Below are positions 10,435 to 64,000 of a stretch of DNA of 64,000 nt, one piece after another. The stretch is from a virus. The DNA lies in UHGV virus genome UHGV-1378817; one strand, given 5' to 3'. The position numbers and the translations under genes were made by a program. Under the pieces are notes generated by a model that did not search any database, had not been told where the DNA came from, and saw nothing but the letters and a program-made list of their open reading frames with translations. The first letter of the stretch is position 1. Every line of letters begins with the position of its first letter.

Positions 10435-10704
10435 TTATCGAGGCACTCGGTGGATGATTCTAACAGTAACTGCATTTTCATTCATCAAGTATGCATCTAC
10501 ATCTCTGTAAATATAAAACTTCTGCTCACTATCAACAACACAAGCTACCGCCCCTTCAGAGTTGTCTTCAAAAAAGACCACCACTGCATCGCAGCTGAGT
10601 TCATGATATGACTCTCGAAGATTTACAGCCAGAGGATTGAAATCGTCACGAAAATCTACGGTATGGGTTGGATTTACACGCTCTACAATTTTAAGTGTAT
10701 ACAT
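10435..10704 (-). CDS. hypothetical protein
   Basis: ORF track 10435-10794 runs into tRNA-Pro; trimmed to ATG at 10704 (MYTLKIV...) with AAGGA SD. Confidence 0.4.
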   Translation of the reverse strand: MYTLKIVERVNPTHTVDFRDDFNPLAVNLRESYHELSCDAVVVFFEDNSEGAVACVVDSEQKFYIYRDVDAYLMNENAVTVRIIHRVPR

Positions 10705-10750: not shown

Positions 10751-10827
10751 TGGTCTCCACGGAGTGATTCGAACACTCGACCTCCTGATCCCAAATCAGG
10801 CGCTCTACCAAGCTGAGCTACGCGGAG
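10751..10827 (-). tRNA. tRNA-Pro (anticodon UGG)
   Basis: Cloverleaf read by hand: 7-bp acceptor, D arm GCTC/GAGC, anticodon arm CCTGA-TTTGGGA-TCAGG, T loop TTCGAAT, encoded CCA. Confidence 0.8.
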
Positions 10828-10838
10828 TATTTATTATT

Positions 10839-10913
10839 TGGTGGCCCTGGGTGGAATTGAACCACCGTCTGGCGATTATGAGTCGCTTGCTTGAACCTTC
10901 CAGCTACAGGGCC
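10839..10913 (-). tRNA. tRNA-Met or Ile2 (anticodon CAU)
   Basis: Acceptor GGCCCTG/CAGGGCC, anticodon arm GCGA-CTCATAA-TCGC, T loop TTCAATT, encoded CCA. Confidence 0.7.
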
Positions 10914-10914
10914 A

Positions 10915-10990
10915 TGGTGCTGATAGCAGGACTCGAACCTGCAACCTATTGATTACAAATCAATTGCACTACCAATTGTGCTACATCAGC
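10915..10990 (-). tRNA. tRNA-Thr (anticodon UGU)
   Basis: Acceptor GCTGATG, D arm GCAC/GTGC, anticodon arm ATTGA-TTTGTAA-TCAAT, T loop TTCGAGT, CCA. Confidence 0.75.
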
Positions 10991-10995
10991 AAAAA

Positions 10996-11094
10996 GGTGC
11001 TAGGTGATGGAATCGAACCACCTATGTATTCAACGACTACCTCGTCTATTTTCAGGATTAAAAATCCTCGCCCTTGCCAAAGGGCTTACCTAGC
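10996..11094 (-). tRNA. atypical long tRNA-like element (~99 nt; anticodon loop reads UUU with 4-bp stem; long extra arm)
   Basis: Acceptor GCTAGGT/ACCTAGC and canonical T arm GGTGG-TTCGATT-CCATC are clear; anticodon arm and a 30-nt variable region are non-canonical; 3' end ACC not CCA. Confidence 0.35.
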
Positions 11095-11192
11095 TCAGTA
11101 TGTTGACCATGTTGCTAGTCGGCGATGACGACTGTAACATTTGATAATCCGGTTCTGCTTCCGGCTTTCGCTTAATTACAAGGTCAACAATA

Positions 11193-11283
11193 TGGCTGAG
11201 GGTAATGGAATCGAACCATCATCGAGTCATCCTCAACGGGACGGTTTTCAAGACCGCTTGAGCACCATTGCTCCCTACCCTCA
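11193..11283 (-). tRNA. tRNA-Ser (anticodon UGA), type II
   Basis: Acceptor TGAGGGT/ACCCTCA, 3-bp D stem, anticodon arm GCGGT-CTTGAAA-ACCGT, long variable arm, T loop TTCGATT, CCA. Confidence 0.75.
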
Positions 11284-11397
11284 TTTATAAACAATACTGA
11301 TAATGACACTGATTTTCGAGCAGTTAGTGACTAGTATAAACGACGATAAATATCAATGCCATTATCTGTATGATTTATGCATTTAAAACTATAAATT

Positions 11398-11484
11398 TGG
11401 TGGGGAGTGGTGGAGTCGAACCACCCGAGTCGCAATGACAATAGATTTACAGTCTACACCGCTACCTCTACGGGATAACTCCCC
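11398..11484 (-). tRNA. tRNA-Tyr (anticodon GUA), type II
   Basis: Acceptor GGGGAGT/ACTCCCC, anticodon arm GTAGA-CTGTAAA-TCTAT, variable arm, T loop TTCGACT, CCA. Confidence 0.75.
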
Positions 11485-11488
11485 AATT

Positions 11489-11563
11489 TGGCACCCCGTA
11501 CTGGACTCGAACCAGTGTCAACGGCTTAGAAGGCCGCTGCTTTATCCACTAAGCTAACAGGGC
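11489..11563 (-). tRNA. tRNA-Arg (anticodon UCU)
   Basis: Acceptor GCCCTGT/ACGGGGT (two G-U pairs), D arm GCTT/AAGC, anticodon arm GCGGC-CTTCTAA-GCCGT, T arm ACTGG-TTCGAGT-CCAGT, CCA. Confidence 0.7.
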
Positions 11564-53334: not shown

Positions 53335-53550
53335 ATGAAGATAGAAATATTTGGTGGGGCTGACAACACTCGTGGCCTGATTTACCTTGAATTTGATGAA
53401 TCATACCTGCCAGAGGTGTTAAATATAGACTCTGTTGCTGAGGCTTTGGGAGTAAACCCTAAAGAACTCCACTCTTGTGCTGAGATCGATGGTTGGGAAG
53501 AGACCATGAACATTGATTTCAGTGAAGTAGAGGACGAACCGCTGGACTGA
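53335..53550 (+). CDS. hypothetical acidic protein
   Basis: 71 aa; MKIEIFGG N-terminus; last plus-strand gene before non-coding region. Confidence 0.4.
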   Translation: MKIEIFGGADNTRGLIYLEFDESYLPEVLNIDSVAEALGVNPKELHSCAEIDGWEETMNIDFSEVEDEPLD

Positions 53551-53679
53551 CACACAATTAGCTGCCCGGCTAAAGTGCTGGAAGCGCACCTATAACACAT
53601 CTTTCAACTAAATTTCCTACCACCACAATCACTTACCTCCAACACATGACTGTTTGCTTGTTTAGTGAGCAGTCATGCC

Positions 53680-53707
53680 TTGACATTCTTGCCTATCCTG
53701 ATAAAAT
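53680..53707 (+). promoter_or_regulatory. sigma70-like promoter firing into ORF-poor region
   Basis: TTGACA, 16-nt spacer, TAAAAT; no convincing ORF downstream. Confidence 0.4.
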
Positions 53708-55021
53708 TAAGTTCTTCTCTTTTCTTTTACCGAGTAATTCGGGTTTTCTGTTCTCTTCGGTTTGAAGGGGTATGGAGATACACCTGAGTGAACAGGGTGA
53801 ACAACCGAACCATTGGCTATGGCATTAGCATGGCGAAGCGGACGGGTGACGAAAGAGGGGCCGGAGGACACCAGTCACTGCCATATGATATATGGGTGAT
53901 AACCTGAAGAGTCTGAATAAGTGTTTAAGTACCAGTCAGAGGAAAAGGTGAATGGTAGCCGAAGGGGGAGGGGGGTTTCTTGTATCTTTAATTTGTATAT
54001 TATGTATACACTTGTAAACCAATATCATCTAGATCTGTTTACCACACAAAGTGGATAGAGACAAATATTACCTATTAAACTTGAATTATTTATAGAAAAT
54101 ACCACAACACCACTTAAGTCTTTGATTTTACACACAAATCTTACAGATATTCAACCTCCATATTTAACATACCTGTAACATATTCCATACTCTACCTGCC
54201 TGATCAATTTCCCCAACTACATCCCTCATATTTCCCCTGTCTGTACTACCCTGCCCCACCGGGAGTCCCGTCATATCTGGCTTTCCAGCAAATATCACAC
54301 CCACAAATATCATGCCTGAAGAGGGTTTCATCCCATAATACCTGCCTTGCCTGAAGAGCGCTTCATACACCACGTAAATTTTTTAATTGACCTCCCCTGC
54401 CCCGCCGGAGAGGTTGGCTTTTCCCACACAGACCTGAAGAGTCAGCCAGAAATATCTGAATAGGCCCAGTTCTACCACGATTTTGACCTGACCTACAGGA
54501 GCGCTGCCAGGCGGACGAAATGGGAATACTTCTCATTCTTATAACAATTCTCAAATATCGAGGCAGTGAGGCAAATTAATAGGCCAGGCCGTTCACACAG
54601 TGGCACAACATTTGCAACCTATCTTGTGGGGGTGAATGAGAATACCTATCATTGTGAGAACCATTATCATTACGGGCAATTTAACATAATACCCATTATG
54701 CGCACCACTGGTGATACATACAGGGATTGATAACACGAGTTACAGTTTACGCATATAACAATCATATTTCTTACTATTTGTGTGGGATATAGTTAGCAGC
54801 CGATAGATTAGATATTGACCTGTGGACTTCCAACCGTCTAGACGTCTAAGCGCCCACACAACAAGGCTTATACATACATTACTGAATGTAAACAGGGCCG
54901 CAAAAATGCTACCATACCAGTTTGTAAATTTTCATGCAGCACTTGACAAAGAGGAGGAAAACTTGTCTGACACAATGTCACACAATATGACACAATAACG
55001 GCTGTTACCATTCCATATCTC

Positions 55022-55077
55022 ACTGTTTACGCATAGACTGTTTACGCCTGGATAGTTTACACCTTGACAGTTTACAC
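55022..55077. repeat. four direct iteron-like repeats with exact 15-bp periodicity (ACTGTTTACGC x2, ATAGTTTACAC, ACAGTTTACAC)
   Basis: Repeat starts at 55022, 55037, 55052, 55067; further copies of the core at 54742-54752 and 55493-55502. Confidence 0.7.
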
Positions 55078-55150
55078 AGATATGATAAGCCATGACATTC
55101 GTTTGCATGAAAACAATTAGCAAGTTAACAATTAACAAGTTAATAATATA

Positions 55151-55303
55151 TGACATAATATAAAAGCAGGGCAACTATTAGAAGATCTATAGTTGCCTTG
55201 CTTGTTATGTCATGATTAACTAAATACAAGGCAACTATGATCTGATTAATAGTTTGCAGACAAACTATCACGGGGGTGATGGTTACTGCTTTTATATTAT
55301 GTC
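55151..55303. repeat. ~150-bp element bounded by perfect 18-bp inverted repeats, containing internal GGCAACTAT palindromes
   Basis: Left arm GACATAATATAAAAGCAG (55152-55169), right arm CTGCTTTTATATTATGTC (55286-55303); inside, GGCAACTAT-N10-ATAGTTGCC. Confidence 0.6.
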
Positions 55304-55946
55304 GCGACTCCGTCGCGCCATGCCATTCGTTTGCATAGTTGCCTTATTGTTACAGATAAAATAATTGTATTGTTAATTATTTCTTATCTTTCTATTAGTC
55401 ATCTAATGATTCCGGTTAGTATAGTAACGTACAGTAAACATTAGACGACTAAATATTTCTATGTTTATGATAACCTATCGTGACAATTCCGGACTGTTTA
55501 CGAAAAATGTTGACACCTGAGCTGATTTATGTTATGCAATTTAAACGAATAATTATTTTATGCAGGTATTGACTATTCCGTTATTCTATGGTTGGAATAA
55601 ATACTTAGCAAGCTATAGAATGGTGAGCGTACGTAAATTCTGAGATTTGTCGGCTATAGTTATACTCGATTTTTCACGTAGAACACGCTTTTTGGTTTGT
55701 GTAAGTGTATGACTTATAAAGATTTTTAGTTGTTGACAAGATATTGAAGATGTGCATCAGGTTAAATTTTGTGCAATAGCTGCATTACGTGCAATTTTGG
55801 AAGGAAAACTGGTAAAAATAGCACCGATACCACACAATGAAAGGTTATGCAATAGCTATTTTATATGTATATTTGTACAGTGTGCAGGATTGATGGCTCG
55901 TCAATTATTCCACTTGCCAGGTAGGGCCGTTTATGGTAGGGGAAGA

Positions 55947-55977
55947 GCAGACAAAAAGAAAGGGGCCTAAGCCCCTT
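55947..55977 (-). terminator. intrinsic terminator closing the minus-strand gene block
   Basis: AGGGGC-ctaa-GCCCCT hairpin followed on minus strand by TCTTTTTGT, about 20 nt after stop of 55996-56415. Confidence 0.6.
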
Positions 55978-55995
55978 GATAATTCAGTTAAAAAA

Positions 55996-56415
55996 TTATA
56001 ATGATTCGTATATTTCAAAAATCCGATTTGCCAGGTCGTTACGGTAGCGGAATTTTTCCTCACGTTTGATCATCAGATCTTTAAAGCCGTATTCTTTAAG
56101 CACTTCATTAACTTTATGGCGGCATACCTTCATATTATCTTGAGCGTCACCAATAAACTTGTTGCTGTGGTGCATTGCTTTAATTTCTTCTTCCAGGACC
56201 AGGGCAACTACCCGTACCGGATCAAGCTGGTAGGCGGTAACATCGATGCGGCATTGTAGACGGCTTTTAACGTCTGCCACCGGATATACTGCAACCTCTT
56301 CCCCGTCAACATTGACAATAATTAGTTTACCATCGATTTCGAATCCTTTCGCCGCCGGACCGTGACAAAAAGCGTTATCAAAGCTATATGCCGGATTATT
56401 AGATTTAATGTTCAT
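55996..56415 (-). CDS. hypothetical protein
   Basis: 139 aa ORF with own promoter and terminator. Confidence 0.45.
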   Translation of the reverse strand: MNIKSNNPAYSFDNAFCHGPAAKGFEIDGKLIIVNVDGEEVAVYPVADVKSRLQCRIDVTAYQLDPVRVVALVLEEEIKAMHHSNKFIGDAQDNMKVCRHKVNEVLKEYGFKDLMIKREEKFRYRNDLANRIFEIYESL

Positions 56416-56464
56416 GGTGTTTTTACCTCTTAGTTAATTTTCTTACAACTTCCCTTCAAAAAAG

Positions 56465-56493
56465 AATATAGCAAAACTGCCGATCCCTGTCAA
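56465..56493 (-). promoter_or_regulatory. sigma70-like promoter (minus strand)
   Basis: On minus strand TTGACA, 17-nt spacer, TATATT; upstream of 55996-56415. Confidence 0.55.
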
Positions 56494-56559
56494 CCAAGGA
56501 TGGCATAATTTTTATGTGATCAAGGGGCTTTATTGCCCCTGACCATGTAACTTGTTGTA

Positions 56560-56823
56560 TTATTTGTTATTCATCCAGTTTTCCCAAGCTGCCTGATAAT
56601 CTGCCTCACTGCGGCGGATCTCTTCTTGCTCTTCAAGCCGGATCTCTTCTTCTAGGTACCCCAAGATATCGGCTTTTTTGGTCTGGCGTAACATCCAATC
56701 ATCTTTTTTACGGGTAAAGATCTTATATGCTTTCTCGCAAACCTCTTTTTTGCTACCTTTTTGGACTTCAAGAACTTTGTAGGCCATGTACTGAACTAGT
56801 TTGAGCTGATCAAGACGTTTCAT
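56560..56823 (-). CDS. hypothetical protein
   Basis: 87 aa charged ORF. Confidence 0.4.
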   Translation of the reverse strand: MKRLDQLKLVQYMAYKVLEVQKGSKKEVCEKAYKIFTRKKDDWMLRQTKKADILGYLEEEIRLEEQEEIRRSEADYQAAWENWMNNK

Positions 56824-56886
56824 GATGTTTACCTCTTTATGGGGTTCTGGTTTGGTGTGGGCCTTTTGGCCCGTGTCATTATCTTA

Positions 56887-57159
56887 TTACTTACGGCGGC
56901 AAAATTCAAGTGTTTTTAATTGATAATCTTCCTCAGCTTGGAGTACAACCGCCTCGATCATTTCGTTGGCATTGGTGAAGCCATACCCTTGAGCGAACTC
57001 ATCCGCGCCACCTTCGTGATCATGTTCTGCGTTCATCGCTTCCACAAAATGGAATTCAAGATTATTGAGGTAAGGGCTTGATGTTCCGTCCTCTTTTTCG
57101 ATGAGATCCCAGATAGCATTAAAACGTGATTCGACTTCTTGATTAATCCAGCTTGACAT
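56887..57159 (-). CDS. hypothetical acidic protein
   Basis: 90 aa ORF. Confidence 0.4.
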   Translation of the reverse strand: MSSWINQEVESRFNAIWDLIEKEDGTSSPYLNNLEFHFVEAMNAEHDHEGGADEFAQGYGFTNANEMIEAVVLQAEEDYQLKTLEFCRRK

Positions 57160-57321
57160 AATGTTTTCCTCTCTTCTGGTTGTTGTGTGGGCACTTTTGC
57201 CCCTTCAAGATAAATGATACCCCCACCACCTGGCAGATGTCAACGGTTTTTATAGTTTTTTATATAACAGGCACCCCCGGTGATTGTCTCCCCCCGTCGC
57301 CAGGTGCCTGCCGTGAAACAA

Positions 57322-57356
57322 GTATAACAAAAAACAGGACCATTGCAAGCCCTGTT
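57322..57356 (-). terminator. intrinsic terminator
   Basis: AACAGGGC-ttgcaatgg-TCCTGTT hairpin followed on minus strand by TTTTTGTTAT, after stop of 57373-57564. Confidence 0.55.
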
Positions 57357-57372
57357 TTGTAGTTTATAAATA

Positions 57373-57564
57373 TTATATTTTTTCGCCTATGTAGTCCGGT
57401 CGGTTTTTCTCTGTCATGCGCTTTAGCAATTCTTGCATGTTGCTTATGGCTTGTAGTGTATCCCCTTCCAGGCTTGAATCGACATAATCAGGATCGTCTA
57501 TGACCTTTCTATGATTATGATAACGCAGTACCGCCAATACCTTTCTAACTTGTTCGATATTCAT
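57373..57564 (-). CDS. hypothetical protein
   Basis: 63 aa ORF. Confidence 0.4.
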   Translation of the reverse strand: MNIEQVRKVLAVLRYHNHRKVIDDPDYVDSSLEGDTLQAISNMQELLKRMTEKNRPDYIGEKI

Positions 57565-57713
57565 TTTTACCGCTCTTTAAAACAAGGTGCCAACCGTTTC
57601 CAATAGATCACTAACTATCAGGACAATACTGATCAGCACATATCTAACCATAAGGGGAAAGAGCGCCAGCGATCCCGCCACAATCCCCAAGGTGATGATT
57701 ATCTTTCTCATGG

Positions 57714-57998
57714 TTAACGGTTTACGTAAGTTTTCCCGTTCACGGTTATGGGCAGATCCTCCAGGTCTGGATCTTCCTTAAGGTCGCGAGCAAGCTCACC
57801 GCACCGGATACCCTCGAATCCGTAGTACTCTGTCGTGCCGTCCTTAAAAGTTTTAGCGGCAAGGCATAAGCGATAAGTAACCCCGATTCGATTGACGGCA
57901 TGAATATCCGTTAGATTAACCTCTTTTGCCAGCTCTTTAGCCATTACAGGCGCATTAAGTCCAACAACCAGGGCAACCACTGCGATCATCTTTTTCAT
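57714..57998 (-). CDS. secreted/periplasmic small protein
   Basis: 94 aa; signal-peptide-like N-terminus MKKMIAVVALVVGLNAPVMA. Confidence 0.45.
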   Translation of the reverse strand: MKKMIAVVALVVGLNAPVMAKELAKEVNLTDIHAVNRIGVTYRLCLAAKTFKDGTTEYYGFEGIRCGELARDLKEDPDLEDLPITVNGKTYVNR

Positions 57999-58089
57999 TG
58001 TGTCTATCCTCTTTCTGCTACGTTTAAGGCGGAGGTAACCGCCTGTTTATGCTTTGTTGGTTAATTTTCGGGTATCGGTATAAATTAAA

Positions 58090-58305
58090 CTATGCTGTAC
58101 GTTCAACTATAACAACGGTTTGGGGGATCTCACCTTCCACCACTAATAAGGCCTTTTTCTGCGTGATGGATATCTTTACCCGTTGCAGCGTGGCGGTGAA
58201 GTCTTTCATTTCGTCACGTGGTGTTTTAGTGCAATACCAGATCTCAGGCTTGCCGATCTGTAAGTTGCGTAAAAATTCCGTTTTGCCTGTTTTGTTAGTG
58301 ATCAT
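58090..58305 (-). CDS. hypothetical protein
   Basis: 71 aa ORF. Confidence 0.4.
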   Translation of the reverse strand: MITNKTGKTEFLRNLQIGKPEIWYCTKTPRDEMKDFTATLQRVKISITQKKALLVVEGEIPQTVVIVERTA

Positions 58306-58314
58306 TTGCCAACC

Positions 58315-58419
58315 TCACCCGATACCGTTGGAAGACAAGATCACATTAGCCATGGTTGCAATCAGGCCAATACCCAGGGCAATAACCAGGATCACCGCAT
58401 CAATTAATTTCTGTTTCAT
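58315..58419 (-). CDS. small membrane peptide (34 aa)
   Basis: MKQKLIDAVILVIALGIGLIATMANVILSSNGIG; below ORF-track cutoff. Confidence 0.3.
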   Translation of the reverse strand: MKQKLIDAVILVIALGIGLIATMANVILSSNGIG

Positions 58420-58496
58420 GGTGTTTATTCTCTTCTGTTAGTAACCTTATTCATGGGGCCGCTACTACAGCCCCAGGGTAAGGCGGCTATGTGCTT

Positions 58497-58742
58497 TTAG
58501 TGTTTCATTCCAACCATCGCGGCACGGATCGCCGTAGTGCTGTACTTGAAGCCGTCCGGGGTCTTATCTTGTCCGGTTAGCTCCAGAAAAAGCATCATAT
58601 CCCGCGCCGCATCATTACGATTAGCATTAGCGTTAATAAAGCCTTGGGCCAACCGGTACAATGACTCATCGTTATTAATCCAAAGGCTTACATTCCAATG
58701 AGTTTTGTTTTTGTAACCGTTATAACCTTTATTGCTTTTCAT
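58497..58742 (-). CDS. hypothetical protein
   Basis: Start set to ATG 58742 (MKSNKGYNGYKNKTHW...) with AGAGGT SD. Confidence 0.4.
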   Translation of the reverse strand: MKSNKGYNGYKNKTHWNVSLWINNDESLYRLAQGFINANANRNDAARDMMLFLELTGQDKTPDGFKYSTTAIRAAMVGMKH

Positions 58743-58833
58743 GGTGTTTACCTCTTCTTTGTTCCAGGTGGCGGACCATTCCACCGCCTTATGTATTATG
58801 CTTTGTTAGATGGTTGTTTGTTGTCAAACTATT

Positions 58834-59013
58834 TTAACGATAATCATCGTACGCTTTATTAACCTGGCGAATATAACATTCAAAAGCCAGATCAATAGAT
58901 TTATATTCACGGATATATTCACCATAGGAAACCACATACATTTCTATAGCTTCCTCATATGCGAGGAGAATAGAATCTAAGCCTACGATCTCAGTCTTTG
59001 CAATAATAGCCAT
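58834..59013 (-). CDS. hypothetical small protein (59 aa)
   Basis: MAIIAKTEIVGLDSILLAYEEAIEMYVVSYGEYIREYKSIDLAFECYIRQVNKAYDDYR; GAGGATAAAAATC-ATG; below ORF-track cutoff. Confidence 0.35.
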   Translation of the reverse strand: MAIIAKTEIVGLDSILLAYEEAIEMYVVSYGEYIREYKSIDLAFECYIRQVNKAYDDYR

Positions 59014-59088
59014 GATTTTTATCCTCTTTGTGGTTGGTGGGGCTTGTTGCCCCCTTTGATTTATATACTACAGTCTTATATGGTCATG

Positions 59089-59322
59089 TCAACTATTTTC
59101 AAAAAATTTTTCTGCTGTAATATTTTTCCCGGTAGGGTTCGCTACTTTCAAAATTTTATCATGCACTGGACGCCCAAAAGAATAAGCGCCGTACACAGTG
59201 CACCAATAATCGCCGTCAGGCTGTACTATTACCGCCGCATAGGGTACGCCTTTTTCGTTTTTGCTGACAAAATAGATCACGTTGCCATTAATAGCCTCGG
59301 CGCGTTTAATTTGTTCCATCAT
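59089..59322 (-). CDS. hypothetical protein
   Basis: 77 aa ORF. Confidence 0.4.
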   Translation of the reverse strand: MMEQIKRAEAINGNVIYFVSKNEKGVPYAAVIVQPDGDYWCTVYGAYSFGRPVHDKILKVANPTGKNITAEKFFENS

Positions 59323-59378
59323 GATGATTTGCCTCTCTTTATTTTCATAATTGGGGGGCCTTTTCGGCCCAGCCAGGT

Positions 59379-59663
59379 TTATTTATTGATAGCGTGCAGC
59401 GGGAAAGGTACGCCAGGTTGATAGATAACTTTTACAACCTCATCAGGACAAAAGAAGTTGCAGAACTCACCGCAATAGGCCTCATCCTCTTTCAACTCTT
59501 CATCAATATACTCAAAAAAGTAGTCGATGCTTGGATAATCTTGCCCTGGGTTATAGTCAACCATTGTCAGGACCAGTTCAAGATCGTTGCGTAGGATATG
59601 CATACCCGCTTTTAAGTATTTTGCTTCCATTTCTACTACATCGCCAGCGGTAACAATAGCCAT
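59379..59663 (-). CDS. hypothetical protein
   Basis: 94 aa ORF; promoter-like TTGCAT/GATAAT plus G-rich hairpin upstream. Confidence 0.4.
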   Translation of the reverse strand: MAIVTAGDVVEMEAKYLKAGMHILRNDLELVLTMVDYNPGQDYPSIDYFFEYIDEELKEDEAYCGEFCNFFCPDEVVKVIYQPGVPFPLHAINK

Positions 59664-59890
59664 GGTTTTAACTCCTATCTATCCGGTTAATGATTGGGGG
59701 CCGCCCCCCTGATGAGTCCTATTATCCATATTGTAGGGCTTGATGCAAGTACTTATTTAAAAAATTTTTTAAGCGCTCCGTATGCCGTTGTAACGCCAAA
59801 ATAATAAAGGCCATGCAACCGCATAGCCTTTATGTGATTATATCGCTGCAGGCCCTGCCAGGGGCCTTATTTTGCATCATTTTACCGGAA

Positions 59891-60199
59891 CTATACAGAG
59901 AAAACATCGTTCACAATAGCGATCACAATGCCGCCCACCTTGTCACGGTCAACAATGCACAAATCACCATAAATCATGTGGTAGTCTGGATGATCTTTCA
60001 CGGAATAGTCAATGAGTGTTTTCTTGTCGTCCAGCTTTGTAACTTCCATTCTCATAACGATATGAGAATCATCAAAGGCATTATTCCGAAAAGTCATAGC
60101 CTGACCACCAGGGCACCCAGTGATCTCAACTTCCACACCGTCTACGATCTGACCATCAAAGAAATAAAGATTATTAGCCGGGATAAACATGTTTATCAC
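59891..60199 (-). CDS. hypothetical protein
   Basis: 102 aa ORF with AAGGAG SD; preceded by conserved 40-bp intergenic element. Confidence 0.4.
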   Translation of the reverse strand: MINMFIPANNLYFFDGQIVDGVEVEITGCPGGQAMTFRNNAFDDSHIVMRMEVTKLDDKKTLIDYSVKDHPDYHMIYGDLCIVDRDKVGGIVIAIVNDVFSV

Positions 60200-60240
60200 T
60201 CCTTGTTAACTGCGTGTTATTTTACCACGATTAAAATTTA

Positions 60241-60280
60241 CTTTACCGATGGCCCTGAAGTCAAGGCCATCTAAAAATAA
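60241..60280. repeat. conserved intergenic element, copy 1 (hairpin GATGGCC...GGCCATC with TTGACT in loop)
   Basis: 37/40 identical to 63961-64000; perfect 7-bp stem GATGGCC/GGCCATC enclosing TTGACTTCAG on minus strand. Confidence 0.6.
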
Positions 60281-60282
60281 AT

Positions 60283-60483
60283 TTACAGGCCTACAATCTC
60301 TTTGATTCGTTTTACTGCTGCCTCAGCGCCTTGGGGGTAGAAATTATGGTAACCGATCACGCGAGTGATACTAATCGCCGTTTGATGATCTTCATAATCG
60401 CCCTTGAAGATTTCTTGACCGTCAATCAGCACGGCAATTTTTTCTTCTTTTTTGAAGTTAATAACGCGGATATTGTTGCTCAT
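60283..60483 (-). CDS. hypothetical protein
   Basis: 66 aa ORF. Confidence 0.4.
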   Translation of the reverse strand: MSNNIRVINFKKEEKIAVLIDGQEIFKGDYEDHQTAISITRVIGYHNFYPQGAEAAVKRIKEIVGL

Positions 60484-60621
60484 TTTGTTTCTCCTTTCTG
60501 GTTTTTGTGTTGGTGGGGATTAGCTCCCCGTTGATTGTCATTATCCACATTCTGGACCGGATTGCAACACCCCGGAAGAAAAATTTTTTAAAAAGATAGG
60601 CCCCATGATCGGGGGCTGTTC

Positions 60622-60741
60622 TTAGTTACTTACTGCGATAAAGTACATCCCTACGCCTAGCAATATTTCAAGGGCGATGATCTCAAGCCATACCATAACC
60701 CGGCGCGCCTTATCGGTGCGGGGCTTATCCTTGGTTGTCAT
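60622..60741 (-). CDS. small membrane peptide (39 aa)
   Basis: MTTKDKPRTDKARRVMVWLEIIALEILLGVGMYFIAVSN; strong SD AGGAGGAAAGGGGGAG; below ORF-track cutoff. Confidence 0.35.
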   Translation of the reverse strand: MTTKDKPRTDKARRVMVWLEIIALEILLGVGMYFIAVSN

Positions 60742-60910
60742 CGTCTCCCCCTTTCCTCCTGGTAGTAGTGACGCGATCTACAATGACCCCCAGGAGTCCT
60801 ATCACGACACACATCACGAGAAAAATTATCTCCGCTGTTGTTCGGTCCATTATTATAAAAGTCCTCAAGATCAGGCCTGAAAATAAAGCTTTCGTTATTG
60901 AATCCATCAC
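60725..60910 (-). CDS. small membrane protein
   Basis: 61 aa with hydrophobic core (IIFLVMCVVIGLLGVIV). Confidence 0.3.
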   Translation of the reverse strand: MMDSITKALFSGLILRTFIIMDRTTAEIIFLVMCVVIGLLGVIVDRVTTTRRKGGDDDNQG

Positions 60911-60960
60911 GCCAGGCGGCTGGCTTCAAATCTTCATTAAAGGGATTAATTAACGTGGTA

Positions 60961-61332
60961 TTATTTAAACGGCTGGCCCACATATTTTCTATTCCTCTCA
61001 AATAGGCGATCCGCCTCAGTTAAACATATCTCATGGGCTTGATCTCTGGTTTTAGCTTCATCAAAAACCTGTTGCGCCAGGCTGCAACGTAGGGAGACTG
61101 GAAGATCACTATAATAGGCGTTGACAAACGTTTGAGCGTCGTACAGGTCTGAAAATACTTTACCCTTTCTATTATCGCCTTTGTCAACAATTGCAAGGAT
61201 AACAAGTACAATAGTTGCAACCACCCCCAGGAAAATAGATATAATAAACCATAAAAAGGCGGATCTACCTATCTTGCCAGCGATCCAGGCGTTGAACAAG
61301 GCAACTACTACAGCCAAAATAATAAATTCCAT
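60961..61332 (-). CDS. membrane protein
   Basis: Start set to ATG 61332 (MEFIILAVVVALF...) with AAAGAGG SD; two hydrophobic segments. Confidence 0.4.
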   Translation of the reverse strand: MEFIILAVVVALFNAWIAGKIGRSAFLWFIISIFLGVVATIVLVILAIVDKGDNRKGKVFSDLYDAQTFVNAYYSDLPVSLRCSLAQQVFDEAKTRDQAHEICLTEADRLFERNRKYVGQPFK

Positions 61333-61396
61333 TCTATGTACCTCTTTTGTAGTTCTGTTTAACAATAAGGCGGCAAATATGCCGCCTGTTACCTGA

Positions 61397-61777
61397 TTAA
61401 AAATTATCGCCGTAAATCTTTCCGCTTTCTACCCATACCACCACGCGAGGCATACTATCCCACACGTCTTGTTTTAGATTGAGCGCGTGCAATTCTTCGG
61501 TGGTGCTCATACCGGGCACGGGCTGATTGTATACTGCAAAACGACCGCCTGCATAATCATAGGCCAGGGTTAAATCACACTGGATCATCTTTTTGATCAT
61601 GGCATTAAGCATGGCGTTAGCCGCATATTGATCACGTTTTAAAGGCAACTCTTTGATTAGTTTGCGATAGTTTTCGATATGGTCGCACACTGTTTCACGA
61701 GGAAGATCTTTCATATCTTCACGGAATGTAACCAGGTTAAACATAACGGTGTCAATAGCCTTGGTAGTGTTTTTCAT
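61397..61777 (-). CDS. hypothetical protein
   Basis: 126 aa ORF; promoter TTGCAA/TATATT and 5' hairpin upstream. Confidence 0.4.
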   Translation of the reverse strand: MKNTTKAIDTVMFNLVTFREDMKDLPRETVCDHIENYRKLIKELPLKRDQYAANAMLNAMIKKMIQCDLTLAYDYAGGRFAVYNQPVPGMSTTEELHALNLKQDVWDSMPRVVVWVESGKIYGDNF

Positions 61778-61867
61778 GATGTTATCCTCTTTGTTTTGTG
61801 TTGGGGCAAACGTCTTGCCCCCTTGAGTTTTAATATAGCAGGTTTTTAGGTTATTGCAACACTTTAT

Positions 61868-62491
61868 TTATGAAAAAGTCATCTCACCATATTCATCGAC
61901 ATCAAACCGCCAATCATTGGCCTCGATAAGGCCGATCAGGTTTTCTGCGGTGAACTGTTCTAGATAGGCCTCCTTCAGGTCTACGTAAACCTTGCGGGAT
62001 AGCTCCCGTACCGTCTCGGTGATCAGTTCTTCCAGGTCTTCCACTTTGTTTTCTTGTTTGGCGGTCAGATCTAGCCAAGTGGTATCAATGTACCCGCTTA
62101 CAGTGTTTTCATGGCTGTAATGGCTGTACTTGTCGCGTTCAACACTGGCTGATAACTCGCCATCGTGCATTGTGCCGAACAAGTGACGAATTGATCGGAA
62201 CTTGGTCAGGGCCTTTACTTTACGCAAAAATTTTTCTAAATCCACGTTTTCAGCACTGATTGACGCGCCGTCACCCTGGCACCAAAAGCCGGACCAATGT
62301 ACTTCGGTATCTTCAAGGCCGTACTCTGGAAAGATATATTCTTTGTAGTGTTCAATTACACTTTCTGCAAAAAAGTTATCCCCGCTGTGTTCTTCTCTTT
62401 CGCGGACCATTTCAATAGCTTTTTCTTTTTGTTCGTCGGTCAGCACGTCGAAAGATAAATTGTAACCTGTGGTAATGTTAACGGTGGTCAT
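61868..62491 (-). CDS. hypothetical protein (207 aa)
   Basis: Largest gene of the block; conserved-looking HWSGFWCQGDGASI motif; own promoter. Confidence 0.45.
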   Translation of the reverse strand: MTTVNITTGYNLSFDVLTDEQKEKAIEMVREREEHSGDNFFAESVIEHYKEYIFPEYGLEDTEVHWSGFWCQGDGASISAENVDLEKFLRKVKALTKFRSIRHLFGTMHDGELSASVERDKYSHYSHENTVSGYIDTTWLDLTAKQENKVEDLEELITETVRELSRKVYVDLKEAYLEQFTAENLIGLIEANDWRFDVDEYGEMTFS

Positions 62492-62548
62492 GATATTTTC
62501 TCCTATTTTCTTTGTTAGTGGCGGGAAAACTTCCCGCCTGTGTGCTTA

Positions 62549-62576
62549 AGTATACTTATTGAGATTTACTTGTCAA
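62549..62576 (-). promoter_or_regulatory. sigma70-like promoter (minus strand) with 5' leader hairpin
   Basis: On minus strand TTGACA, 16-nt spacer, TATACT, then GGCGGGAA-gttt-TCCCGCC hairpin before SD. Confidence 0.55.
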
Positions 62577-62826
62577 CACTATTTTTTAAATTATTGTGGC
62601 GTAAAATATTCAAGATCTCTTCAACGTCATCAACACGGCGGCAATTTTTAAACGCTACCAATTGCCCCAGGATTTTAATCACTGGACGGCCTTGCCAGTG
62701 CCCTTGGAGAAAGCGCGCTTTAACTTTATCGGTGGAACTATCACGCCACCAAATAGCCTTGTTGTTGCAGTAGTAAAAATTATTCAGGATAACATCAACT
62801 TTATCAAAATTTTTTAATTTACGCAT
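62566..62826 (-). CDS. hypothetical protein
   Basis: 86 aa basic ORF. Confidence 0.4.
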   Translation of the reverse strand: MRKLKNFDKVDVILNNFYYCNNKAIWWRDSSTDKVKARFLQGHWQGRPVIKILGQLVAFKNCRRVDDVEEILNILRHNNLKNSVDK

Positions 62827-62858
62827 GGCGTTTACTCCTTTCTCTCTTTGATGTGGTT

Positions 62859-62886
62859 AGTATAGCTAACCTGTTGACGATGTCAA
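62859..62886 (-). promoter_or_regulatory. sigma70-like promoter (minus strand)
   Basis: On minus strand TTGACA, 16-nt spacer, TATACT; upstream of 62566-62826. Confidence 0.55.
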
Positions 62887-63002
62887 TGATATTTTTAACG
62901 CCATGAAACGGCCCTGGGCGATGTTTTCAGGTTAAAGGGGGCGATTGCATAGGTGGGGCCTTTTTGGCGCTTACAGGGCCAACCAGGGGCGCTATTCGTA
63001 GG

Positions 63003-63036
63003 ATAGAAATAAAAAGCCCCGCACAATGGCGGGGCG
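63003..63036 (-). terminator. intrinsic terminator
   Basis: GCCCCGC-acaatg-GCGGGGC hairpin followed on minus strand by TTTTTATTTC, just after stop of 63044-63265. Confidence 0.65.
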
Positions 63037-63043
63037 TTGGTTG

Positions 63044-63265
63044 TTATTTGCCTTTGTGGCGGTATCGTTCCGCCTGTCGTTCACGTTCCAAAAGCAGGCC
63101 CGGTAATTTGCGATCATAATGATTCCGCCAGATCTTCCCAAATCTTTTTGGCTTATTCAGTTTATTGTTGCGCTGGCGGCGTTCCGGCAGCTCTTCGGAA
63201 GCATGAGATCGCTTTACAATCTTCTCAAAATTAATCTTCATATATTCCCCCCTTGCTAACTTCAA
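63044..63265 (-). CDS. hypothetical basic protein
   Basis: 73 aa, Arg/Lys-rich. Confidence 0.35.
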   Translation of the reverse strand: MKLARGEYMKINFEKIVKRSHASEELPERRQRNNKLNKPKRFGKIWRNHYDRKLPGLLLERERQAERYRHKGK

Positions 63266-63584
63266 TATTGGCCTGAATAGCCCGGATACGGCGCTTTATA
63301 ACTTCCTGATCTGTGTGATCGTATCCCCAAAAGTCTACGATTTTTGCGCCTCCAGCCTTTAGGCGGTATAGTGTTTCTTGCATCTTGTAAGCCGGGATCG
63401 GTCGCGGTGTTACCTGGTCGCCCTTCTCATTCTTGTACTTGATAATGTAGTCTTCATTGTCGTTGAATACCCAAAATGGGTATTCTGTGAGCGCGTTGCT
63501 CTCTTTTTCGTTTTTAGATTGGATCTTGTTTACAATTAAAGCCGTAGCAATAGCGCCAATAATAAAACTTGCCCCGCTGATCAT
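63231..63584 (-). CDS. membrane-anchored hypothetical protein
   Basis: Start set to ATG 63584 (MISGASFIIGAIATALIV...) with AAGGAG SD. Confidence 0.4.
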   Translation of the reverse strand: MISGASFIIGAIATALIVNKIQSKNEKESNALTEYPFWVFNDNEDYIIKYKNEKGDQVTPRPIPAYKMQETLYRLKAGGAKIVDFWGYDHTDQEVIKRRIRAIQANIEVSKGGIYED

Positions 63585-63659
63585 GTACTTTCTCCTTTCA
63601 TTGTGTTGATAAACTGTCTTTATAGATGGCCCTGCTACCAGGACCACCGAAAAAACAGC

Positions 63660-63905
63660 TTATTTGACGATACCGACAAAACAGATCCCGCCTTCCCCTA
63701 TATAGGCAATATCGGTAATTTTATAATTTGTCAAGATCCGCGTGTTCAGATCATTAATAAAATCGGTCATCGCGTTGGTGTAGTTGTCTTCCGTGTCTAA
63801 GGCATAATCCCAGGTGTAAACCTTTTTACGTCCGAAGCCTTTTACCATGATACGGGCGCTTTTGGTGTTGGTAGGGGCATAATATTTAGTGATTAGTGCT
63901 GCCAT
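63660..63905 (-). CDS. hypothetical protein
   Basis: 81 aa ORF preceded by copy 2 of the conserved intergenic element. Confidence 0.4.
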   Translation of the reverse strand: MAALITKYYAPTNTKSARIMVKGFGRKKVYTWDYALDTEDNYTNAMTDFINDLNTRILTNYKITDIAYIGEGGICFVGIVK

Positions 63906-63960
63906 GGTTTTAACTCCTATGCATTAGTTCAGTGTTAACAGTATAAAGTTTACTTTATTG

Positions 63961-64000
63961 ATGGCCCTAAAGTCAAGGCCATCTAAAAATAATCTTACTC
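63961..64000. repeat. conserved intergenic element, copy 2
   Basis: 37/40 identical to 60241-60280, including GATGGCC/GGCCATC hairpin and TTGACT. Confidence 0.6.

What the first reader, a model, noticed from the sequence alone, without database searches (positions are those of the whole stretch)
55996..63905. Block of about 20 small minus-strand genes, each with its own promoter, G-rich leader hairpin and terminator
Nearly every gene here is preceded by a sigma70-like promoter (TTGACA or TTGCAA with TATACT/TATATT/GATAAT), then a GC-rich hairpin in the 5' leader (for example GGGGCAAGACGTTTGCCCC, GGCGGGAAGTTTTCCCGCC, GGGGAGCTAATCCCC), then a conserved-looking leader (AACACAAAAC...AGAGGA) before the ATG. 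A second promoter-proximal motif AACAAAGCATAA recurs upstream of 57998 and 58742. None of the proteins has a recognisable function; several are secreted or membrane proteins. The pattern suggests individually tuned early/host-takeover or anti-defence genes.
Basis: seen in the sequence. Interest (0 to 1): 0.55.

Follow-up and report, generated by a model that had tools for sequence, protein, structure and literature searches.

The report
Promoter-hairpin gene cassettes in a coliphage
This is the variable early-gene region of an rV5-like E. coli phage, where many small genes of unknown function each carry a host-type promoter followed by a short GC hairpin; the same kind of cassette is known from T4-like phages, so it is a good example of a known design and not a new one.

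Summary
The window is a Vequintavirus (rV5-like myovirus). The block holds 23 small minus-strand genes, not about 20. Seventeen have their own upstream region and six are translationally coupled. The motif is real but overstated. Six genes clearly have a sigma70 promoter, a GC hairpin starting 9-11 nt after the -10, an A/C-rich leader and a Shine-Dalgarno site. Four more have a weaker version. Four elements carry the -35 inside a hairpin. Only five or six true terminators exist.

Stems are conserved across relatives (10% variable columns) while loops vary (60%), with compensatory changes and whole-hairpin flips. The same cassette, in a more regular form, fills the equivalent regions of phi92 and ESCO13, which belong to another subfamily. 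Gene modules are swapped between these phages, with crossovers exactly at the shared -35.

The anatomy matches the PeSLs (promoter-early stem-loops) of T4-like phages. My best reading is that these are autonomous early expression modules. The transcribed hairpin would sit 3-4 nt from the mRNA 5' end and stabilise or insulate the mRNA, and the shared sequences would act as recombination joints. The hairpin's role is inferred, because no transcript data exist. The proteins remain of unknown function. This is a new member of a known kind, of moderate interest.

The parts
55996..63905 (-). Block of 23 small genes, g1 to g23. ATG positions: 63905, 63584, 63241, 62826, 62491, 61777, 61332, 60983, 60741, 60483, 60190, 59663, 59322, 59013, 58742, 58419, 58305, 57998, 57711, 57564, 57159, 56823, 56415.
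   Evidence: annotated in navn, JES2013 and Murica; PHROG matches
62520..62576 (-). g5 cassette: TTGACA-16-TATACT (62576-62549), then 10 nt, then hairpin GGCGGGAAGTTTTCCCGCC (62538-62520), which ends 28 nt before the ATG.
   Evidence: equals rV5 P185; the hairpin is flipped in 8 relatives
61803..61859 (-). g6 cassette: TTGCAA-16-TATATT (61859-61832), hairpin GGGGCAAGACGTTTGCCCC (61821-61803), leader AACACAAAACAAAGAGGA.
60515..60567 (-). g10 cassette: TTGCAA-16-GATAAT (60567-60540), hairpin GGGGAGCTAATCCCC (60529-60515), A/C-rich leader.
59696..59749 (-). g12 cassette: CTTGCA-17-GATAAT (59749-59721), hairpin GGGGGGCGGCCCCC (59709-59696).
   Evidence: compensatory series G-C, G.U, A-U in relatives
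59039..59092 (-). g14 cassette: TTGACA-16-TAGTAT (59092-59065), hairpin GGGGCAACAAGCCCC (59053-59039).
   Evidence: equals rV5 P174
57189..57243 (-). g21 cassette: TTGACA-18-TATCAT (57243-57214), hairpin GGGCAAAAGTGCCC (57202-57189).
   Evidence: equals rV5 P168; PDX carries the g6-type hairpin here
58764..58827 (-). g15 cassette: TTGACA (58827-58822) with an over-long spacer to CATAAT, the AACAAAGCATAA motif, and hairpin GGCGGTGGAATGGTCCGCCACC (about 58788-58767). The -35 is the crossover point of module swaps in relatives.
56859..56909 (-). g22 cassette with a weak promoter: TTGAAT-17-TAAGAT (56909-56881), hairpin GGGCCAAAAGGCCC (56872-56859), A/C-rich leader.
58027..58058 (-). g18 degenerate cassette: AACAAAGCATAA motif, hairpin AGGCGGTTACCTCCGCCT (58044-58027), no credible -35.
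61368..61387 (-). Hairpin AGGCGGCATATTTGCCGCCT followed by TTATTGTT, upstream of g7. It is a weak terminator (rV5 t184) and lies 35 nt before the g7 ATG.
59356..59370 (-). Hairpin-only element upstream of g13 (GGGCCGAAAAGGCCC). No promoter. Flipped in phage 203.
58454..58475 (-). Hairpin-only element upstream of g16 (TGGGGCTGTAGTAGCGGCCCCA).
63947..63983 (-). g1 cassette of the second class: hairpin GATGGCC-TTGACTTTAG-GGCCATC (63983-63960) encloses the -35 TTGACT; the -10 is TAAACT (ends 63947).
60235..60271 (-). g11 cassette, a second copy of the same repeat: hairpin 60271-60248 with TTGACT inside, -10 TAAATT.
63625..63648 (-). Degenerate copy of that repeat upstream of g2 (GGTGGTCCTGGTAGCAGGGCCATC). 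No -35.
56465..56501 (-). g23 promoter TTGACA-17-TATATT (56493-56465), with a hairpin ATCCTTGGTTGACAGGGAT (56501-56483) around the -35. No leader hairpin.
   Evidence: equals rV5 P164; same form in ESCO13
62859..62886 (-). g4 promoter TTGACA-16-TATACT, without a leader hairpin.
   Evidence: equals rV5 P186
63016..63035 (-). Intrinsic terminator after g3 (GCCCCGC..GCGGGGC followed by TTTTTATTT).
60600..60616 (-). Intrinsic terminator after g9 (rV5 t181).
59804..59833 (-). Intrinsic terminator after g11 (rV5 t177). It is preceded by hairpin 59867-59850, which in relatives follows an extra 116-aa gene.
57321..57358 (-). Terminator after g20 (57358-57331). Its loop holds a -35 (TTGCAA), with the -10 TATACT 16 nt later. 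This is a composite terminator-promoter.
55960..55977 (-). Terminator closing the block after g23 (rV5 t164).

Best explanation
The block is the distal, hyperplastic part of the long leftward early or middle transcription unit of an rV5-like phage. Its intergenic regions are composite regulatory cassettes of the PeSL type. Each cassette has an A-rich upstream stretch holding the previous stop codon, a sigma70 promoter ((T)GTTGACA, 16-18 nt, TAnnnT), a G-run/C-run stem-loop, an A/C-rich U-poor leader, a strong SD (AGAGGA or AAGGAG) and the ATG.

Shown. The anatomy, its restriction to this block, selection on the stems, and the use of the cassettes as crossover points when gene modules are swapped.

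Inferred. Host RNA polymerase starts at the conserved C-A/G dinucleotide 7-8 nt after the -10. The hairpin would then be the first structure of the mRNA, with only 3-4 unpaired 5' nucleotides. Like the 5' stem-loops of ompA and T7 gene 10 mRNA, it would hinder 5'-end-dependent attack by RppH and RNase E. It would also keep the following unstructured leader and SD free whatever gene is attached. In read-through transcripts the same hairpin can serve as a 3' barrier for the upstream cistron. The result is a set of self-contained, portable expression modules for accessory genes. The conserved promoter and leader sequences provide the homology by which modules are gained, lost and exchanged, including exchange with phi92- and phAPEC8-like phages.
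For: Identity and layout: 92-95% identity to Vequintavirus genomes.

Restriction to the block: hairpins followed 24-35 nt later by SD and ATG are confined to this block within the window and are rare in the 37 kb upstream in navn. Among strong promoter-like sites, 3 of 6 in the block but 1 of 38 elsewhere in the window have a hairpin (dG of -6.8 kcal/mol or lower) starting 3-16 nt after the -10 (my Fisher P is about 0.006).

Fixed geometry: in 33 cassettes from the window, navn, ESCO13 and phi92, the stem starts 10-11 nt after the -10 in 24, and a pyrimidine-purine step (CA, CG or TG) sits at nt 7-8 in 25. The predicted 5' UTRs are 44-50 nt. The hairpin forms in the minimum-energy fold, and the SD is mostly unpaired in 7 of 8.

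Selection on structure: across 11 orthologous loci the stem columns are 10% variable, loops 60%, other intergenic columns 22% (loop versus stem P=3e-15). Every variant still folds. In g12 a stem pair goes G-C, then G.U, then A-U on the sense strand. Paralogous cassettes differ by G-C versus C-G at one stem position.

Not terminators: class-A hairpins are followed by 0-1 T in 8 nt, and true T-run terminators lie upstream of or around the -35. The leader is 91% A+C and 3% T.

Module exchange: relatives differ by whole modules in the slots that correspond to the long intergenic regions of the window. In PDX, L002, L003 and JEP1 the sequences diverge immediately after the shared TAAAATAGTTTGACAAC. 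The PDX module is 93-94% identical to Justusliebigvirus and Phapecoctavirus phages. Phage 203 lost g15 by a junction in the shared leader. PDX carries the g6 hairpin in the g21 cassette.

Same kind as PeSLs: the description in PMC2839356 fits, and my re-reading of RB49 with the same script found AAAAGTTGTTGACA, G/C stem-loops, A/C-rich leaders, and one SLS starting 9 nt after the -10.

Precedent for 5' stem-loop stabilisers: PMC2254391 and PMC3997798. rV5 encodes a probable Srd homologue, and T4 Srd stimulates RNase E on host mRNA (PMC4980113).
Against: No transcript 5' ends, half-lives or expression times are available for any Vequintavirus or Stephanstirmvirinae phage, so the start sites are predicted only from the -10.

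Hairpins also occur without any promoter, at the same distance from the ATG (g13, g16; ESCO13 1709, 2048, 3507). A purely 5'-terminal role therefore cannot explain all of them.

Other strong promoters of the same phage (27 on the plus strand at 16-54 kb) lack such hairpins, so the hairpin is not a general requirement for expression.

Perfect palindromes are maintained by DNA-level processes too. Whole-hairpin flips preserve the stems automatically. The sense-strand bias of wobble pairs is weak: 13 G.T against 6 A.C, mostly from one paralogous family.

The PeSL authors showed terminator activity for one stem-loop in RB49.

Indel breakpoints at gene boundaries are also what selection for viable phages alone would leave. 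Two of the indels examined (the g11/g12 and g20/g21 extra genes) are not at cassette sequences.
Confidence: 0.6

Rival explanations
1. The hairpins are attenuators or terminators for transcription coming from upstream, which is the role first proposed for PeSL stem-loops. They would limit the build-up of read-through along the array of promoters, and their position after the promoter would be incidental.
For: The PeSL211/210 stem-loop of RB49 reduced lacZ expression as much as rrnB T1 (PMC2839356). Hairpins also occur between genes with no promoter (g13, g16). Murica's annotators called the 63983- and 60271-type hairpins terminators.
Against: Class-A hairpins are followed by A/C-rich sequence with 0-1 T in 8 nt, so they lack the U-tract of intrinsic terminators. 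Sitting about 10 nt after the -10, they would also stop transcripts from their own promoter. Real T-run terminators in the block are placed before or around the -35. The fixed distance to the -10 in 24 of 33 cassettes is not needed for an attenuator.
Confidence: 0.15
2. The inverted repeats are DNA operators, or RNA sites, for a phage-encoded regulator that shuts off or tags the early genes as a group. The position from about +4 to +22 is classical for a repressor.
For: In ESCO13 and phi92 the repeat is sequence-conserved: GCGG and its complement occur in 26 of 26 copies. It lies at a constant position over the start site. The rV5 authors suggest early-to-late switching may involve their probable Srd (anti-sigma) homologue gp11 and found no T4-type late-transcription factors.
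Against: In the window the stems differ in sequence, length and loop size (GGCGGG, GGGGCA, GGGGA, GGGCC, GGGGGG). Orthologues keep pairing and not sequence (G-C to A-U, flips, loop turnover). G.T pairs break the DNA palindrome in the commonest ESCO13 form. No candidate regulator was identified.
Confidence: 0.1
3. The hairpins have no role in expression. They are kept as part of selfish or recombinogenic cassettes, in which palindromes promote template switching and mini-circle formation, and simply hitch-hike with the promoters.
For: There are exact hairpin flips between close relatives, hypervariable loops (60%, above the intergenic background of 22%), hairpin exchange between cassettes, and crossovers at cassette sequences. 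Mini-circles were shown for PeSLs.
Against: Stems are more conserved than neighbouring intergenic DNA (10% versus 22%, P=5e-5). The distance to the -10 and to the ATG is constrained in two phage subfamilies. The G-C, G.U, A-U series is on the sense strand. A leader composition that is 91% A+C argues for selection at the RNA level.
Confidence: 0.1
4. The pattern is a chance or compositional effect of reading short intergenic regions.
For: The simple scan finds only 27 promoter-like sites against 19.2 +/- 4.4 expected at the loose threshold.
Against: At 10 of 12 or better there are 6 sites against 1.4 expected, all on the coding strand. Hairpin z-scores reach -4.3. The repeat families have zero matches in shuffles. 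The elements are conserved in 11 relatives and in another subfamily.
Confidence: 0.01

Closest known systems
PeSLs (promoter-early stem-loops) of T4-like phages RB49/phi1, PST/T4 and nt-1/KVP40 (Arbiol et al. 2010, PMC2839356; Comeau et al. 2014, PMC4122927)
   Same: The upstream stop codon lies in an A-rich stretch. There is a near-consensus sigma70 promoter (AAAAGTTGTTGACA in RB49, AAAATAGTGTTGACA here), a G-run-loop-C-run stem-loop, an A/C-rich leader, an SD and an ATG. Both are concentrated in hyperplastic regions upstream of small ORFans. Close relatives differ by whole ORF modules with junctions in the cassettes. Both stem-loop positions seen here (around the -35, and after the -10) are among the five described subclasses.
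   Different: The phage lineage is different (Vequintavirinae and Stephanstirmvirinae, not Straboviridae). Here the dominant position of the stem-loop is 9-11 nt after the -10, so it is transcribed. In RB49 it mostly lies between the -35 and -10 or overlaps the -10. No U-tract follows. Terminator activity and mini-circles were shown for PeSLs but are untested here.
5'-terminal stem-loop mRNA stabilisers: ompA and papA leaders, and the T7 phi10 / gene 10 leader (Emory, Bouvet and Belasco 1992; Mertens et al. 1996; cited in PMC3997798 and PMC2254391)
   Same: A sequence-independent stable hairpin lies within a few nucleotides of the 5' end, followed by an unstructured leader and a strong SD. The T7 example is also a phage design.
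   Different: In those cases the 5' end and the effect on half-life were measured. Here both are inferred. The hairpins here are shorter (5-9 bp) and are reiterated in front of many genes.
Predicted promoters and terminators of phage rV5 (Kropinski et al. 2013, PMC3606486, Table S4), and the sigma70-like early promoter AAAA(N3-4)TGTTGAC(N17-19)TATAAT of Certrevirus (Buttimer et al. 2020, PMC7344957)
   Same: The same promoters appear: P164, P168, P174, P185 and P186 correspond to g23, g21, g14, g5 and g4. The same terminators appear: t164, t177, t181 and t184. The TGTTGAC form of the -35 is the same, and both are concentrated in the region of short hypothetical ORFs.
   Different: Neither paper mentions the hairpins after the promoter, the A/C-rich leader, or a role in module exchange.
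Lambda nut boxB / HK022 put RNA hairpins, and the phage N4 hairpin promoters
   Same: They are short hairpins close to early promoters of phages.
   Different: boxB and put have conserved sequences and act with N or on RNA polymerase to suppress terminators. N4 hairpins are DNA structures upstream of the start site, read by a virion RNA polymerase. Here the sequences are diverse, the promoters are ordinary sigma70 sites and no phage polymerase is known. This is a comparison from my own knowledge and was not tested.

Membership tests
PeSL (promoter-early stem-loop) cassettes | Near-consensus sigma70 promoter with an AT-rich region upstream that holds the stop codon of the preceding gene | tested here: met
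   g4, g5, g6, g10, g14, g21 and g23 score 9-11 of 12, preceded by AAAATAGT(G)- or AAATAAAGTG-type stretches.
PeSL (promoter-early stem-loop) cassettes | Adjacent stable stem-loop, often polyG followed by polyC, in one of five positions relative to the promoter | tested here: met
   15 hairpins of -6.8 to -18 kcal/mol. Ten lie after the -10 or in the leader, and four enclose the -35. Both positions are listed in PMC2839356.
PeSL (promoter-early stem-loop) cassettes | SD and start codon of a downstream small ORF(an) at the 3' end, with preferential location in a hyperplastic region | tested here: met
   Census of the window and of navn. 21 of 23 proteins have no Pfam family. Gene content is variable among relatives.
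PeSL (promoter-early stem-loop) cassettes | Insertions, deletions or replacements between close relatives have junctions in or next to the cassettes | tested here: met
   The junction lies right after the shared -35 in PDX, L002, L003 and JEP1, and in the shared leader in phage 203. Two other indels are not at cassette sequences, so this is met for most but not all.
PeSL (promoter-early stem-loop) cassettes | The stem-loop acts as a transcription terminator or attenuator | not testable with these tools
   Sequence only: there is no U-tract after class-A hairpins. This argues against canonical intrinsic termination but does not measure it.
PeSL (promoter-early stem-loop) cassettes | Formation of mini-circles by recombination between neighbouring cassettes | not testable with these tools
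   Needs inverse PCR on infected cells.
PeSL (promoter-early stem-loop) cassettes | Host phage is a T4-like myovirus, the only group in which PeSLs were described | tested here: not met
   The taxonomy of the nearest records is Vequintavirinae. The same cassettes occur in Stephanstirmvirinae. I therefore file it as a PeSL-type element in another lineage.
5'-terminal stem-loop mRNA stabilisers | The hairpin begins within a few (about 2-4) unpaired nucleotides of the primary 5' end | tested here: inconclusive
   The predicted start (a YR step 7-8 nt after the -10) gives a 3-4 nt overhang in 24 of 33 cassettes. No 5' ends have been mapped.
5'-terminal stem-loop mRNA stabilisers | Function depends on structure, not sequence | tested here: met
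   Stem sequences are diverse, compensatory changes and flips occur, and stems are conserved while loops vary.
5'-terminal stem-loop mRNA stabilisers | Removing the stem shortens the mRNA half-life in an RNase E/RppH-dependent way | not testable with these tools
   Needs an experiment.
Rho-independent terminators | GC-rich hairpin followed directly by a U-tract | tested here: not met
   Not met for the ten leader hairpins (0-3 T in 8 nt, except 61387-61368). Met for 63035, 60616, 59833, 57358 and 55977.
Described RNA families (Rfam 15) | Match to a covariance model | tested here: not met
   Only tRNAs reach the gathering threshold in the window. There is nothing credible in 53500-64000 at E<=1.

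The most novel reading that the evidence does not exclude
The 5' hairpin plus U-poor A/C leader is a 'self' mark on phage early mRNAs. The phage would speed up host mRNA decay through its Srd-like RNase E activator, or through another early factor. Its own accessory-gene transcripts would escape because their 5' ends are base-paired and their leaders lack RNase E sites. Alternatively, a phage protein reads the GGCGG...CCGCC hairpin to time the shut-off of the whole module set. The mark would be shared by two phage subfamilies, which would let them exchange ready-to-run gene modules.
Probability: 0.12. Interest if true: 0.7.

Novelty: new member of a known kind. Interest (0 to 1): 0.38.

Why it matters
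rV5-like and phi92/phAPEC8-like phages are common in therapy and biocontrol collections. About a fifth of their genes are small unknowns sitting in arrays like this one.

Recognising the intergenic elements as portable promoter-hairpin-leader modules has three uses. It gives a rule for delimiting transcription units and real start codons in these genomes. It explains how accessory genes move between two subfamilies, since the crossover sits at the shared -35, which matters for predicting variation in host range and counter-defence between near-identical phages. And it offers compact natural parts (strong promoter, stabilising 5' UTR, strong ribosome-binding site) for expression in E. coli.

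If the hairpins do protect phage mRNAs from RNase E, they would link to the open question of how phages that stimulate host mRNA decay spare their own transcripts.

Tried and rejected
1. Rfam search of the whole window at gathering threshold and of 53500-64000 at E<=1 found only tRNAs and two chance-level hits.

2. Searching IMG/VR with g5 gave only two close loci, so I used GenBank phages instead. A 15-mer cassette scan of IMG/VR gave 48 scattered places that I did not pursue. A blastn of a whole cassette was more informative: 525 places in 142 phage records.

4. Strand-asymmetry test (G.T against A.C positions in stems): 13 against 6. It is dominated by one paralogous family and is not decisive.

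5. The MAFFT alignment of 26 paralogous hairpins (A2) was out of register on the 3' arm, so I did not use the count of structure pairs. I tabulated pairs from individual folds instead.

6. Literature search found no transcriptome or 5'-end map for Vequintavirus, Phapecoctavirus or phi92, and no description of hairpins after the promoter.

7. Antisense-terminator idea. On the plus strand some hairpins are followed by T-containing tails, but these are just the reverse complement of the AT-rich -10 region and contain no real T-runs. I dropped the idea.

8. Two indels (the extra 116-aa and 103-aa genes in relatives) turned out not to be cassette-mediated.

Full report
WHAT THE SEQUENCE IS. The 7.9-kb stretch is 92-95% identical over its full length to more than 100 Vequintavirus (rV5-like) genomes such as JES2013, navn, FFH2 and Murica. 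In those records it carries 22-25 'hypothetical protein' genes on one strand. It lies at the 3' end of a leftward unit of about 37 kb. That unit starts with replication genes (DNA polymerase, primase/helicase, rIIA/B) and ends at a terminator next to a 2-kb ORF-free region.

THE GENES. I count 23 minus-strand ORFs of 34-207 aa, and every one that I scanned matches a PHROG family. None has a known function. Only g3 (T7 gp1.1 family) and g15 (DUF7249) reach a Pfam threshold. Six have a hydrophobic TM- or signal-like segment, and four are markedly acidic. The largest, g5, gave a confident model (pLDDT 86) with no credible structural neighbour. 'Anti-defence or host-takeover' remains a guess.

CHECKING THE OBSERVATION. 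Seventeen genes have 56-227 nt of upstream intergenic sequence. Six (g3, g8, g9, g17, g19, g20) overlap or abut the preceding gene. Strong sigma70-like sites (at least 10 of 12) number six on the coding strand and none on the other, against about 1.4 expected. Five of them are the promoters P164, P168, P174, P185 and P186 predicted in the rV5 paper.

The upstream regions fall into four types.
- Type A: promoter, then a GC hairpin, then an A/C-rich leader, then the SD. This is clear for g5, g6, g10, g12, g14 and g21. It is weaker or promoter-less for g15, g22, g7 and g18.
- Type B: a hairpin that encloses the -35. This includes the 24-nt repeat GATGGCC-TTGACTTYAG-GGCCATC before g1 and g11 (two exact copies, none in shuffles), a decayed copy before g2, the g23 promoter, and the terminator-promoter at 57358-57321.
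- Type C: promoter only (g4).
- Type D: hairpin only (g13, g16).

Twelve hairpins end 24-35 nt before the ATG. Leaders fold better than dinucleotide shuffles in 11 of 17 cases at p<0.05. The stretch between hairpin and SD in the six clear cassettes is 91% A+C with 3 T in 94 nt. AACAAAGCATAA is present exactly at the two places named and marks two paralogous cassettes. Only five hairpins, plus one weak one, have the T-run of a terminator.

IS THE PROMOTER-HAIRPIN LINK SPECIFIC? Within the window, hairpins followed by an SD and ATG at this distance occur only in this block. Of 38 strong promoter-like sites elsewhere in the window, including 27 in the other small-gene region on the plus strand, one has a stable hairpin starting 3-16 nt after the -10. 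In the block the figure is three of six. In the 37 kb upstream in navn there are only three or four more such cassettes.

GEOMETRY. I pooled 33 promoter+hairpin cassettes from the window, navn, ESCO13 and phi92. The stem begins 10-11 nt after the -10 hexamer in 24 of them. Positions 7-8 after the -10 are a pyrimidine-purine step (CA 15, CG 8, TG 2) in 25. If transcription starts at that purine, as is usual for E. coli promoters (established knowledge, not measured here), the mRNA begins with 3-4 unpaired nucleotides followed directly by the hairpin. The predicted 5' UTRs are 44-50 nt. In the minimum-energy fold the hairpin forms, and the SD is mostly unpaired in seven of eight.

EVOLUTIONARY BEHAVIOUR. 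In 11 orthologous loci every hairpin variant still folds. Stem columns are variable in 10% of cases, loops in 60%, other intergenic columns in 22% and SD columns in 14%. In the g12 hairpin one stem pair runs G-C (window), then G.U (navn, JES2013, phage 203, PDX), then A-U (an IMG/VR relative), with the wobble on the sense strand. Paralogous cassettes of ESCO13 and phi92 differ by G-C versus C-G at one stem position.

Two hairpins (g5, g13) are exact reverse complements of their orthologues, loop included. This points to palindrome-driven template switching at the DNA level. PDX carries the window's g6 hairpin in its g21 cassette.

THE SAME DESIGN IN ANOTHER SUBFAMILY. The corresponding small-gene arrays of ESCO13 (Phapecoctavirus) and phi92 (Justusliebigvirus), both Stephanstirmvirinae, show a more regular version: AAAA..TTGACA-N16-TAAGAT-gtatcacatag-GGGCGGCAATGGTGCCGCTC (or GGCGGGAA..TTCCCGCC)-SD-ATG. 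ESCO13 has about 20 copies in 10 kb. The hairpin starts 9-11 nt after the -10 and ends 17-24 nt before the ATG. One 92-nt cassette finds 525 places in 142 phage records.

MODULE EXCHANGE. Relatives differ by presence, absence or replacement of whole genes in four slots (g3/g4, g11/g12, g14-g19, g20/g21). These correspond to the long intergenic regions of the window. At the g14/g15 boundary, the window, PDX, two IMG/VR relatives and JEP1 share ...TAAAATAGTTTGACAAC and diverge immediately after it into different spacer, -10, hairpin, leader and ORF modules. The PDX module is 93-94% identical over its whole 416 nt to Justusliebigvirus and Phapecoctavirus phages. Phage 203 lacks g15, and there the g15 promoter and hairpin are joined to the g16 ORF within the shared leader AGAAGAG..ATGAAA. 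Two other indels, of translationally coupled extra genes, are not at cassette sequences.

COMPARISON WITH WHAT IS KNOWN. PeSLs of T4-like phages are described as an upstream stop codon in an AT-rich stretch, a sigma70 promoter, a G(n)-loop-C(n) stem-loop in one of five positions (including overlapping the -35 and after the -10), an SD and an ATG. They are concentrated before ORFans in hyperplastic regions and mediate modular shuffling (PMC2839356, PMC4122927). Reading RB49 with the same script shows AAAAGTTGTTGACA, G/C stem-loops mostly between the -35 and -10, A/C-rich leaders (one is AACACAAAACAAAAGGAG, almost the g6 leader), and one cassette with the stem-loop 9 nt after the -10. The anatomical and evolutionary criteria are therefore met. 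The lineage criterion is not, and terminator activity and mini-circles cannot be tested here.

The rV5 paper and a Certrevirus paper reported the promoters and the T-run terminators, but not the hairpins after the promoter. I found no transcript map for these phages and no Rfam family.

HOW IT MOST LIKELY WORKS. The following is inferred. Each cassette makes its gene, or a two- to three-gene group, an autonomous early unit read by host RNA polymerase. The transcribed hairpin sits 3-4 nt from the 5' end. It acts like the sequence-independent 5' stem-loops of ompA and T7 gene 10 mRNA, which protect against RNase E (PMC2254391, PMC3997798). The U-poor, G-poor leader keeps the SD free and offers few RNase E sites. 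In read-through transcripts the same hairpin can protect the 3' end of the upstream cistron. This would be useful to a phage that carries a probable Srd homologue, because T4 Srd stimulates RNase E against host mRNA (PMC4980113).

The main rivals are an attenuator role (the original PeSL proposal), a binding site for a phage regulator, and a purely recombinational or selfish role. The lack of a U-tract, the position downstream of the element's own promoter, the diversity of stems with conserved pairing, and the constrained geometry argue against each of these as the main role. Promoter-less hairpins at the same distance from the ATG, and the absence of any transcript data, keep my confidence moderate.

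VERDICT. The finding is real but overstated. It is best filed as PeSL-type promoter/stem-loop cassettes in a second and third phage lineage, with a preferred transcribed position of the stem-loop and clear cross-subfamily module exchange. It is useful and tidy but not a new kind of system.

Noticed in passing
window 57245-57365 (-): The terminator after g20 (57358-57331) has a -35 (TTGCAA) in its loop and a TATACT -10 16 nt later. The roughly 60 nt it would transcribe fold at -22 kcal/mol. They contain a 30-nt core, CACCTGGCGACGGGGGGAGACAATCACCGG (57306-57277), that is conserved in all Vequintavirus loci and in ESCO13, with partial extra copies in an ORF-free gap of navn (L018 2659-2699, 2813-2841). 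There is no Rfam hit. It may be a small RNA or a protein-binding site.
   Followed up: partly
window 54000-55990: About 2 kb has no credible ORF (the 'non-coding' box of the rV5 paper), with GC 0.38. It holds direct repeats ACWGTTTACGCATAK at 54742, 55022, 55037, 55067 and 55493, and nested inverted repeats around GGCAACTAT (55152-55381). These look like iterons, so it could be an origin or regulatory region.
   Followed up: partly
window 62520-62538 and 59356-59370; loci L001, L010-L016: Whole-hairpin flips occur between close relatives. The g5 hairpin of the window is the exact reverse complement of that in 8 relatives, and the g13 hairpin is flipped in phage 203. Loops are more variable (60% of columns) than ordinary intergenic DNA (22%). 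This points to palindrome-driven template switching.
   Followed up: partly
window 58497-58742 (g15, DUF7249): This 81-aa gene is shared at 76-95% DNA identity with very different phages: phi92-like phages, Klebsiella ZCKP1, roughly 350-kb jumbo phages of the PBECO4 group, and a 42-kb phage, PGT2. It is absent or replaced in several Vequintavirus genomes. It behaves as a mobile accessory gene.
   Followed up: partly
window 61868-62491 (g5); also g11, g12, g21: g5 is strongly acidic (44 D+E against 21 K+R in 207 aa) and has an invariant GFxxQGDGA motif. It gives a confident model (pLDDT 86) with no structural neighbour in the PDB. The composition resembles DNA-mimic proteins, but nothing else supports that.
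   Followed up: yes
window 16000-54000 (+): A second region is very rich in consensus sigma70-like sites: 27 at 10 of 12 or better between 16 and 54 kb (30 against about 9 expected over the plus strand of 1-55995). These promoters lack hairpins after the -10 (1 of 27), unlike the block studied here.
   Followed up: partly
window 10751-11563 (-): A cluster of seven tRNA genes (Pro, Met, Thr, one with an odd 4-base anticodon call, Ser, Tyr, Arg). Rfam finds six of them.
   Followed up: no
L018 (navn) 10500-10528: Another cassette form occurs outside the window: TTGACA, then a hairpin TGATAGGGCCTAATATAATGGCCCTATCA whose loop holds the -10 (TATAAT). This is the PeSL subclass in which the stem-loop overlaps the -10.
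   Followed up: no
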